A DNA stretch of 25,399 bases, taken from an uncultured bacterium (lineage in GTDB: Bacteria > Hydrogenedentota > Hydrogenedentia > Hydrogenedentales > JAEUWI01). Positions within the stretch are counted from its first letter, which is position 1. Each line of letters starts with the position of its first letter. The DNA lies in assembly GCA_963977445.1 (NCBI GenBank), contig CAXBPH010000083.1, positions 1-25,399 of the forward strand. The letters are read 5' to 3'. Shown piece by piece: positions 6,001-9,000 of the stretch. Made by a program: the position numbers.

Positions 6001-9000
6001 GCTGAAGGACTGGGGCTTTCGATATTTATATGGTGCCCGAGGCGAGAATCGAACTCGCACGCCATTGCTGGCACAAGATCCTTAATCTTGCGTGTCTGCC
6101 AATTCCACCACCCGGGCAAGGGAGCAACATAGTACAAAAAAAACGCCCCATGGTGCAACTTTTTACCACAAGGCGCTTAAGTAATCGTTAGTTTACTCAG
6201 GCAAGACCATTGGTCACGAAATCGTTGAGACGGCCTTGAATGTAATCGGCGGTCTGGTTGATGCCCGATTCAATCTTCGGGTCGAGTGCGCTCAGTGCGC
6301 TAAGGATACCGCGTGCTTCACCGATTCCCTTATTAATTGCTCCGCCAATGAAGTCGGCAAACTGCTGCCGTCCTGCCTTATCGTCGGCCAGCTTGTTGTT
6401 CTCTGCGTACTTAGAGAAGAAATTGATGGCGAAATCGGCAATTCGGTTGGCCGTGGCCTCGGGAGACGTATCGAGGGTTTCCCCCTCCGGGATGCCCAAG
6501 GCTGCCCGAGCTTCACCCACCACAGCGCGGAGCTGTTCGTATGCCCGATCAACAACGATGTTCTGGGCCTGGCTACTCGATACCGTTCCACTGAAGGAAA
6601 CGGTGTCGGTCCGGGTCGTCTTAGAAAATGCCTGGGGCTGAGTCGTTCGGGGCTGAGTAAGCTTGCTGCTTATCGGCAGTGCCTGTTGAGTCCCACTGAT
6701 ATCTTGAACCATAGTGTCACCTCGCATCAGGCTCCACCATGGAGCCCAGTATCCGTCGCTCTACTATTATCGGACGGTACTTGAGGAGACTTTAGCCCGT
6801 TGACGAGAAATAGGCGCTCTCTTTTGGAACGGTTGGGGAAATTGACGGGGAAAAGGACCTAAAATTGCCGTGCAGGACGCTGGCGGGCCGAAAAATAGGC
6901 ACCGATGAGAAAGAGCAATGCGAAGACGAGGGTCGTAACGGCACCCCAGCGAAATGTGCCCGATTGGTATCGGAAAGAGACTTCGTGCTTGCCGGTGCTC
7001 AGTTCTACGCCCCGAAGCGCACCGTCCACGGGCAATATGGGCACCGGTGTGCCGTCAACCCAGGCCCGCCATCCGGGATACCAGGCTTCTGCAACAATGA
7101 GAACCCCGGGATGTCCCATTTCCACTTCCACGTCGAGGGCGTCATTACGGGGCACGTCGGTTATCTTGATGGAATCGTCCACGGGACCGGGAAGGGGTGG
7201 TAACAAGAGATCGGGCACCACGGGCAGGGCATCGCGCACCAACCGGGTCGCCTCCAGGGCATTGCTTTCCACTTCGTGAGCGATGCGAATCCGGGGGTAG
7301 GCCCCTTGATCACGAAAGAGAATCAGGCCCGAATCGAAGACGTCCACAATGTTCAAATCGGCCCGGACAGGTGCGTAGATGCCTCGTATGTCTTCCTTCC
7401 GTAGCAAGACCATGGAGATGGCGGCCCGTCGCTGCAAGAGGGGGTCTTTGGCGAGCTGGCGCAGAAAGCGCTCGGTACGGTTCAAGGTTACGGTAGACGG
7501 GCCGTAGAGTGTAGGAATTTCATTGCCAGTGAGGGGCCATTCCCGCATCTGTGCCGTGCCGCCGACGCGGGCATCGGCCTGCTGCAAGCTCCGGATGACT
7601 TCGGTCTGGGGAAAAATATCGGCCCGAGCGGCGTGAGGCAACCAACCCAAGGTGCCCCAGGCCGTCGTAACAAGGATTAATCCAATGGTGCCCACAATCA
7701 GGATGCGCGCCTTCGGGTAGAGCAAGGTGCCGCCAAAAAGGATAGCCAGGAACGCCACAGACCCGGTGAATACCCAGAAGGTCGGCCAATGAATAGTGAC
7801 CTCCCCCGACCCATTACGGGAAAAAAGAATAAAAAACACCAACAGCGCACCCCAGAACACGGGGAGAATCAGGCCCATCCGAAGGAGAGCACGCTTGCAC
7901 TGGTCCGCATTCAAATGGAGCCAGCATTCCACCACGCCCGCTACCATCAAGCCCAGGGGAAAGGAAAGTCCCACGAGGTAGTGGACCGGACTGAGCAGTC
8001 GAAACCCGTGGAGGGTCGGAAGCAGTTCCCGGGTAAGCACCGGCACGGCCACCACCAGCAAGGATGCGAAGAGCAGACTTTCCACCCGGTGTCGAATCGG
8101 TCGGTCAATGAGCCGACGCAGTGCACCCCACAAACCAACAAATAACAGAGGCACCACACCAATAAAGACCACATGAACCAGTGGATTGTTGAGACCCGTT
8201 AGGTTCTGGTAATAGGACGGGCCGAAAATGCCAAGCAGCAAGTTACCGTCAAAGGACCAGGGGTAGGTTTGATCGATGGTATTGCCTTGCCGCAATAACT
8301 CCACGTAGGGGGCTATCTGAACGGCGGCCAGTCCAAGCGCCGCAGCGATGGCCAGCAGAAAGCCCGGGAGGGCCGCCACGATGTGCGCCCGCTTGTGGTC
8401 TCGCAGGCGCCGAAAGAACATGTACAAGACCATAACGACCAGGGAAACAACAAGAAGGTACAAACCGCCAGATATAATCATTAGTGCAGCAACCAATGCA
8501 ACACCCGGCCAGGCTCGAAATTGGCCCAGAATCAATCGATCCGTCGCGAGCACCAGCAAGGGAAGCCAGACCAGACTGTCACTCAGCGGCTCCATTCCCC
8601 AGATGAAAACGGCACCACTCCACTGAAAAATCAGGGCGACAATGAGGGCATACCACGCCGTAAATCCATAGCGTCGGGCCACATAGAATGCTACCCATCC
8701 CGCCGCCACTGCCTTGCTTACCAGTGACAACAACAAGGCAAATTCAAATGAAAACAGATAGAAAAAGCATGTAAACGGAGAAAAAACGCGATTCTCTGGA
8801 TTGGCGAGAAAGGGTAGTCCCAGCGCTGTCGCAGGATTCCATTGCAGCTCCGACAGATTGTGGCGGTTGCTGCTTATGAACTGGTAGGCCGGCCAGGAGG
8901 TACGCAGCTGCCAGCCCGACAGGCGAGACGGCACTTCCCCCTCGGCGGACAGGTGGACCTCCCAGGGGGGCAGATTCAAGAGCGCCGTACCGTCTTGGGC

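What a model noticed while it worked through the whole genome (the two positions that open the first line are those of the whole stretch)
6031..6117. tRNA-Leu(AAG) has replaced tRNA-Leu(GAG) across class Hydrogenedentia
The genome reads CUU/CUC with a tRNA-Leu bearing A34 and has no GAG isoacceptor. The switch is fixed in nearly the whole class and absent from the two deepest phylum members, so it is an independent origin of a second A34 (presumably inosine, TadA-made) tRNA outside Firmicutes.
Evidence so far: Leu set aag, caa, taa, tag, cag. 30 of 30 best orthologous loci have anticodon AAG. D-arm/anticodon pattern: AAG in 93 of 135 genomes, 13 of 15 families; GAG in 7 of 135, of which the four tRNA-like hits (G001, G002, G084, G116) are in genomes without an AAG hit. 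CTC is used 61765 times vs CTT 27277, so C-ending codons must be read. TadA g00738 present; tRNA-Arg(ACG) kept in relatives. PMC8007984, PMC8072771, PMC13249217 passages name only Firmicutes; 'Hydrogenedent' 0 hits.
(Added by a program. Inside this text positions count along the whole contig: contig position 1 is position 1 of the stretch shown here. "Call 12" and the like, gene names such as g00115 and contig names such as C1 are that model's own, and its searches are not shown. The text may have been shortened before it was handed on; [...] marks where a part breaks off. The agent that wrote the report below was given it as the finding of a first reader that could run no searches.)

Follow-up and report, generated by a model that had tools for sequence, protein, structure and literature searches.

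The report
Leucine tRNA with wobble A, Hydrogenedentia
Nearly all members of this uncultured, GC-rich bacterial class read two leucine codons with a tRNA that starts its anticodon with A instead of the usual G, most likely edited to inosine as in streptococci; the same swap turns up in many other bacterial groups, so it is a new case of a known trick that is far more widespread than published surveys say.

Summary
Confirmed: an intact tRNA-Leu(AAG) at 6031-6117(-) and no GAG gene in the genome. In the class, 115 of 133 genomes carry AAG, 3 GAG, 15 neither; the two out-of-class genomes carry GAG. The swap comes with a remodelled loop: YUAAGGA in all 115, one base from the class's tRNA-Arg(ACG) loop CUACGGA and matching the Streptococcus TadA motif YUAMGRA, whereas GAG genes have G38/U38. 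One congeneric pair shows a reversion that changed positions 32, 34 and 38 together. TadA is in 126 of 133, with no residue specific to AAG carriers. CUC outnumbers CUU 2:1, so I34 by TadA is the best reading (0.8); inosine was not measured. Corrections: it is not unique outside Firmicutes. A GTDB sample shows AAG in ten further phylum-level groups, fixed in 68 of 68 Cloacimonadota with a hit; PMC13249217 already names Prochlorococcus and Mycoplasma. An origin at the class base is plausible but unproven, as the two outgroups are one lineage. This scan noted the same tRNA type before in Dependentiae and Polyangiales. New member of a known kind.

The parts
6031..6117 (-). tRNA-Leu(AAG) gene, 87 nt, long variable arm, encoded CCA, single copy
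   Evidence: ARAGORN; identical or near-identical in congeners
6079..6085 (-). Anticodon loop 32-38, UUAAGGA here (CUAAGGA in 111 of 115 AAG genomes of the class); anticodon AAG at 6083-6081
   Evidence: Sequence; class pattern; fits YUAMGRA of PMC11472039
5979..6019 (-). Terminator-like hairpin just downstream of the tRNA, followed by a T run on the tRNA strand; lies between the tRNA and a convergent TerC-like gene (5150-5911, +)
   Evidence: Hairpin 5982-6019 (listed on +; 0.7 expected by chance); minus-strand T run read; neighbour's family hits below cut-off

Best explanation
The gene is the class's only reader designed for CUU/CUC. It descends from the tRNA-Leu(GAG) lineage; G34 became A34 and positions 32 and 38 shifted to Y32/A38, giving a loop (YU-AAG-GA) that differs from the class's tRNA-Arg(ACG) loop (CU-ACG-GA) only at position 35. 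The single TadA deaminates A34 to inosine, and tRNA-Leu(IAG) reads CUU and the more frequent CUC. Shown here: gene, replacement, loop co-variation, TadA with intact catalytic motifs, codon demand. Inferred: expression, inosine, TadA as the enzyme. The class is one of many bacterial lineages with this state, and the state can revert.
For: AAG 115 / GAG 3 / neither 15 of 133, never both. All 259 AAG genomes in four groups have YUAAGGA and none of 53 GAG genomes has A38 (115+5; 34+30; 68+1; 42+17; position 38 was free in all patterns). G074 (GAG) and its sister G075 (AAG) differ at 4 positions, three of them 32, 34, 38. Arg ACG loop CUACGGA in 111 of 112 genomes with a hit. TadA in 126 of 133 class genomes, above the NF008113 cut-off (171 vs 150 bits), HAE and PCxxC intact in all 48 phylum orthologues aligned. 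The commonest loop is the one in Streptococcus loci, where TadA-made I34 is shown (PMC11472039, PMC13249217). An unmodified A34/G37 AAG tRNA reads CUU:CUC 87:13 in E. coli, and changes at 32/37/38 block TadA (PMC11066159), while CUC outnumbers CUU in G000 and in r-protein genes of 24 of 34 AAG genomes.
Against: No RNA evidence. No TadA residue separates AAG from GAG genomes within the class or is shared by AAG lineages, although E. coli TadA fails on S. pyogenes tRNA-Leu(AAG), so enzyme competence is untested. The 32/38 shift could equally be ribosomal tuning of a weaker anticodon (own knowledge). 21 of 119 GTDB AAG genes keep a GAG-type loop, and five such genomes have TadA and no GAG hit, so the loop is not obligatory. 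B. subtilis tolerates unmodified A34 in tRNA-Arg (PMC10454642 abstract). No codon-usage shift accompanies AAG.
Confidence: 0.8

Rival explanations
1. A34 stays unmodified (or only partly edited); the tRNA reads CUU and CUC by A34 wobble, and the 32/38 change tunes ribosome binding.
For: Four-fold-box A34 tRNAs made in E. coli were mature, unedited and functional (10.64898/2026.05.15.725136; Leu was not among those sequenced); yaaJ is dispensable in B. subtilis; O. oeni leaves Thr and Ser A34 unedited; no TadA change seen.
Against: Unmodified AAG discriminates against CUC yet CUC is the majority codon; the same loop is fully edited in S. pyogenes; the loop converges on the TadA motif in four groups.
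Confidence: 0.12
2. tRNA-Leu(UAG) reads CUC by superwobble, and the AAG tRNA serves CUU only.
For: A single TAG gene is present; U34 modification enzymes were not examined; G073 (98% complete) shows neither AAG nor GAG.
Against: G000 keeps G34 isoacceptors in the six other four-fold boxes (Val, Ala, Pro, Thr, Ser, Gly); three class genomes carry GAG instead of AAG rather than nothing; the miss rate matches assembly loss.
Confidence: 0.05
3. History rival (compatible with inosine): AAG is older than the class or came in horizontally, and the sister lineage G133+G134 returned to GAG as it dropped A34 decoding.
For: G133 and G134 are sisters, gave no Arg ACG hit and carry Arg TCG; reversions occur (G074); AAG is common in other phyla.
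Against: Family-13 AAG bodies are close to the outgroup GAG body (15 differences G132 vs G134, against 26-31 to CAG/TAG), fitting in-place descent; G000's own gene does not resolve this (21 to outgroup GAG, 22-25 to CAG/TAG). GAG is the usual bacterial state (papers).
Confidence: 0.35
4. Sequencing error, pseudogene or contaminant.
For: G000 is a fragmented, 94% complete assembly.
Against: Same anticodon in 115 genomes of 13 families, two of them single-contig (G032, G067).
Confidence: 0.01

Closest known systems
tRNA-Leu(AAG)/(IAG) of Lactobacillales (S. pyogenes PMC11472039; S. mutans/S. pneumoniae PMC13249217; O. oeni as cited in PMC8072771)
   Same: AAG replaces GAG, never both; loop CUAAGGA/UUAAGGA as in Streptococcus and lactobacilli loci; single TadA and tRNA-Arg(ACG) kept.
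   Different: GC-rich host (G000 56%; 31 of 34 r-protein loci above 50% GC) with CUC above CUU; no detectable Leu recoding; Arg ACG has G37, so the two loops differ only at 35; TadA has DPK where S. pyogenes and S. oralis have NQK; inosine not shown.
tRNA-Leu(AAG) genes noted in Prochlorococcus and Mycoplasma (PMC13249217)
   Same: A34 Leu tRNA outside Firmicutes proper, known from gene lists only; Prochlorococcus loci have the same CUAAGGA loop.
   Different: Genus-level cases; here a whole class with 13 families.
tRNA-Arg(ACG)/TadA, the canonical bacterial I34 system
   Same: Loop CU-ACG-GA vs YU-AAG-GA; TadA passes NF008113 and matches solved TadA structures 7cph, 2b3j, 2nx8, 1z3a.
   Different: Second substrate with A35 and a long variable arm; E. 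coli TadA edits such tRNAs poorly or not at all.

Membership tests
tRNA-Leu(IAG) system | Intact tRNA-Leu gene with A34 (AAG) | tested here: met
tRNA-Leu(IAG) system | GAG isoacceptor absent where AAG is present | tested here: met
   0 of 115 AAG class genomes show a GAG hit; drafts, so absence is collective
tRNA-Leu(IAG) system | TadA with Zn-binding/catalytic motifs | tested here: met
   126 of 133; NF008113 over cut-off; motifs intact
tRNA-Leu(IAG) system | Loop fits expanded TadA motif YUAMGRA | tested here: met
   115 of 115; motif from PMC11472039
tRNA-Leu(IAG) system | tRNA-Arg(ACG) retained as first substrate | tested here: met
   112 of 133 class genomes; not assembled in G000
tRNA-Leu(IAG) system | Inosine at 34 in the mature tRNA, made by TadA | not testable with these tools
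   No RNA run was available to lay on the gene
tRNA-Leu(IAG) system | TadA sequence adapted to the second substrate | tested here: inconclusive
   No residue tracks AAG; the determinants are not known in print
tRNA-Leu(IAG) system (Lactobacillales, PMC13249217) | Accompanying synonymous Leu recoding | tested here: not met
   G074 (GAG) vs G075 (AAG) CUU:CUC log-odds over other boxes 0.67 vs 0.69; medians 0.98 for 34 AAG, 0.90 for 3 in-class GAG, 0.29 for 2 outgroups; small samples

The most novel reading that the evidence does not exclude
A second TadA-made I34 tRNA is not a rarity of AT-rich Firmicutes but a recurrent, reversible state across at least a dozen bacterial phyla, fixed in whole classes and phyla (Hydrogenedentia, Cloacimonadota) and carried by phages, and it is switched by three anticodon-loop bases (32, 34, 38) with little or no change in TadA; if so these lineages should also show expanded UAAG mRNA editing (Lys-to-Glu recoding).
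Probability: 0.45. Interest if true: 0.72.

Novelty: new member of a known kind. Interest (0 to 1): 0.5.

Why it matters
Surveys built on GtRNAdb call non-Arg A34 tRNAs rare and confined to AT-rich genera (10.64898/2026.05.15.725136, section 14). A GC-rich class in which CUC dominates breaks that link and separates the tRNA switch from AT-driven codon change. The sister pair G074/G075, four bases apart, and cultured AAG carriers such as Akkermansia make it testable whether loop or enzyme decides TadA's second substrate, an open point in PMC11472039 and a model for how eukaryotic ADAT widened its range.

Tried and rejected
RNA evidence: no RNA holder listed for window 4600-7600, so no reads were laid; this says nothing on expression. 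Looked for an edited-looking form (G34 inside the C32/A38 loop with common stems) in the metagenome collection: 1 hit, on a 5-kb contig, of another tRNA body; no positive-control scan was possible, so it is not used as evidence for inosine. TadA signature: none found in 50 aligned sequences or against 9 AAG-lineage sequences, one partial. G37 in Arg ACG as the cause of the switch: rejected, since Sumerlaeota GAG and AAG genomes both have CUACGGA. Other A34 tRNAs of short-arm type in the phylum: none besides ACG; 4 extra hits were not tRNA-like. Codon recoding: not seen. Contaminant origin of G114's GAG: disfavoured, its neighbours match those beside G116's AAG gene; for G082 not settled. Nested position of G082+G114: in a 99-supported clade, but the AU test did not reject placing them outside (p 0.163). 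One search aligned two loci on the wrong strand and is not used. Rafels-Ybern 2018 and 2019 are not held; supplements of PMC13092985 and PMC13249217 could not be read and bioRxiv supplements are closed; any of these may list further AAG lineages.

Full report
Observation. The window holds one tRNA gene, tRNA-Leu(aag) at 6031-6117 on the minus strand, with encoded CCA and a terminator-like hairpin with a T run just downstream. The genome (7.1 Mb, 464 contigs, 56% GC, 94% complete) has Leu aag, caa, cag, taa, tag and no gag; a regex and a relaxed ARAGORN run found no credible gag either. G000 also lacks Arg ACG, Ile GAT, Ala TGC and rplB, so the case rests on relatives. The phylum label is supported by two records titled Ca. 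Hydrogenedentota that carry AAG genes of the class's body type and by G000's tRNA-Trp having the 4-bp anticodon stem that PMC13092985 (passages) reports as exclusive in this phylum.

Distribution in the phylum. The 30 best orthologues are all AAG. A pattern spanning D-arm to T-loop hit 119 of 135 genomes: AAG in 115, GAG in G082, G114 (class) and G133, G134 (outside the class). G074 is a further GAG, missed for its A32. The other 15 class genomes show neither; Arg ACG is likewise missing from 21 of 133, so assembly loss is a sufficient cause. In the class: AAG 115, GAG 3, neither 15, both 0; AAG in 13 of 13 families.

More than one base changed. All 115 AAG loops read YUAAGGA (111 C32, 4 U32 including G000); the GAG loops read UUGAGGG, or AUGAGGG in G074. 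The class's tRNA-Arg(ACG) loop is CUACGGA in 111 of 112 genomes with a hit, one base from the Leu loop, and both fit the S. pyogenes TadA motif YUAMGRA (PMC11472039, passages). G074 and its sister G075 (support 100), nested among AAG genomes, differ at four tRNA positions, three being 32, 34 and 38: a clean reversion. G082 and G114 are sisters with different tRNA bodies; G082's GAG is 6 differences from its own CAG gene, suggesting it was remade from a paralogue. They sit in a 99-supported AAG clade, but the AU test does not reject an outside position (p 0.163); the tree of 21 of my 43 rows needs 3 changes.

Enzyme. One TadA is found in 128 of 135 genomes, 126 of 133 in the class and both outgroups. 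G000's (C18:17574-18047) passes NF008113 and is closest to solved structures 7cph and 2b3j. Catalytic motifs are intact, but no residue separates AAG from GAG genomes, and TadAs of nine other AAG lineages share no obvious change. In print, S. pyogenes TadA edits tRNA-Leu(AAG) and E. coli TadA does not; E. coli edits about 15% of an engineered AAG tRNA, none after A37G, and changes at 32/37/38 block it (PMC11066159, passages). Here G37 is already in the Arg substrate, so only A35 is new to the enzyme (inference).

Demand. CUC 55,965, CUU 27,150, CUA 6,718, CUG 61,441 in 4,518 ORFs. Unmodified A34/G37 reads CUU:CUC 87:13, so a CUC-majority genome without GAG most simply needs I34. Against this: unedited A34 tRNAs work in E. 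coli (10.64898/2026.05.15.725136; first part, section 14 and passages read) and in B. subtilis (PMC10454642, abstract), and the 32/38 change may be ribosomal tuning (own knowledge). No Leu recoding goes with AAG: G074 vs G075 0.67 vs 0.69 log-odds on about 16,000 codons each; r-protein medians 0.98 (34 AAG), 0.90 (3 GAG in class), 0.29 (2 outgroups).

Not unique. A GTDB-wide pattern scan stopped at 120 loci; 119 are tRNA-Leu(aag): 98 YUAAGGA, 21 with a GAG-type loop. By record titles the YUAAGGA type occurs, besides Bacillota and Hydrogenedentota, in Verrucomicrobiota, Cloacimonadota, Synergistota, Fermentibacteria, Actinomarina/Acidimicrobiales, Prochlorococcus, Sumerlaeia, Planctomycetota, myxobacteria/deltaproteobacteria and alphaproteobacteria. 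Follow-up samples: phylum of L157 (Cloacimonadota) AAG in 68 of 71, 3 no hit, one also with GAG; phylum of L126 (Sumerlaeia) AAG 34, GAG 30, 1 spurious, 10 no hit of 75; order of L133 (Akkermansia) AAG 42, GAG 17, 2 no hit of 61. Over the four groups all 259 AAG genomes have YUAAGGA and none of 53 GAG genomes has A38; kin are not independent, but the coupling recurs in each group. Five genomes with the GAG-type AAG loop also lack a GAG hit and have TadA, so a second, unremodelled kind exists.

History. G133 and G134 are sisters (100), so they count once; they gave no Arg ACG hit and carry Arg TCG. One gain in the class and one loss in the sister lineage are equally short. Family-13 AAG bodies resemble the outgroup GAG body more than CAG or TAG, which fits descent from GAG but not its date.

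What is in print. I34 in tRNA-Leu(AAG) is shown for streptococci (PMC13249217, first part and passages; PMC11472039) and O. oeni (PMC8072771, passages). PMC13249217 also names Mycoplasma and Prochlorococcus. PMC8007984 (passages) names Leuconostocaceae and some Firmicutes; PMC6063277 has no 'AAG' in its text. The 2026 preprint finds genus-wide A34 only in genera of 60-70% AT. Eight searches showed no paper reporting it for Hydrogenedentota, Cloacimonadota, Verrucomicrobiales or Sumerlaeota; two key papers were not held and supplements were not seen. Earlier scan notes report the same tRNA type in Dependentiae and Polyangiales; a Polyangiales locus is in my sample, Dependentiae I did not check.

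Verdict. Real and class-wide, most likely TadA-made I34 (0.8, inferred). A new member of a known kind, one of many unreported lineages. Its added value is the GC-rich setting, the coupled 32/34/38 switch and a reversion pair. Interest 0.5.

Noticed in passing
G137 phylum sample (G224-G293): tRNA-Leu(AAG) with loop CUAAGGA in 68 of 68 Cloacimonadota genomes with a hit (71 searched): phylum-wide fixation.
   Followed up: partly
G142 phylum and G136 order: Sumerlaeota (34 AAG, 30 GAG) and the Akkermansia order (42 AAG, 17 GAG) are split and never carry both; good groups for counting gains and reversals.
   Followed up: partly
L301-L420 (IMG/VR): 118 of 120 sampled viral loci carry tRNA-Leu(aag), 44 with loop CUAAGAA and 36 CUAAGGA, many on contigs of 100-500 kb; the 2026 preprint says such tRNAs are absent from phages. 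Host-derived flanks and eukaryotic viruses were not excluded.
   Followed up: partly
L094, L108, L171, L098, L194 (G219-G223): A second kind of AAG gene keeps the GAG-type loop UUAAGGG, replaces GAG, and lies mostly in small genomes with TadA; G223 has four copies. Possibly unedited or differently edited.
   Followed up: partly
G133:C16:6117-6157, G134:C2:5909-5962, G134:C78:1620-1649: The two out-of-class genomes have tRNA-Arg(TCG), G134 the 3' part of a GCG gene, and no ACG hit, yet keep a TadA homologue (62% and 57% identity).
   Followed up: partly
G082:C88 (L051) and G082:C59 (L283): G082's Leu GAG and CAG genes differ at only 6 aligned positions and the CAG is unlike the class's usual CAG: likely duplication or conversion.
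   Followed up: partly
G000:C30:345-420: tRNA-Trp(CCA) with G27-A43 mismatch (4-bp anticodon stem), as reported for the phylum in PMC13092985.
   Followed up: yes
window 5150-5911 (+), 9256-10656 (-), 10717-11868 (-): Neighbours: TerC-like membrane protein (below cut-off), dihydrolipoyl dehydrogenase (over cut-off), mannitol-1-phosphate dehydrogenase-like; the last two and adjacent genes are syntenic with the AAG locus of G116.
   Followed up: no
G000:C39 and C165: ARAGORN intron-mode 'Phe(aaa)' calls are artefacts spanning mobile DNA; their 3' ends look like tRNA fragments at integration sites, one beside an integrase-like ORF.
   Followed up: no
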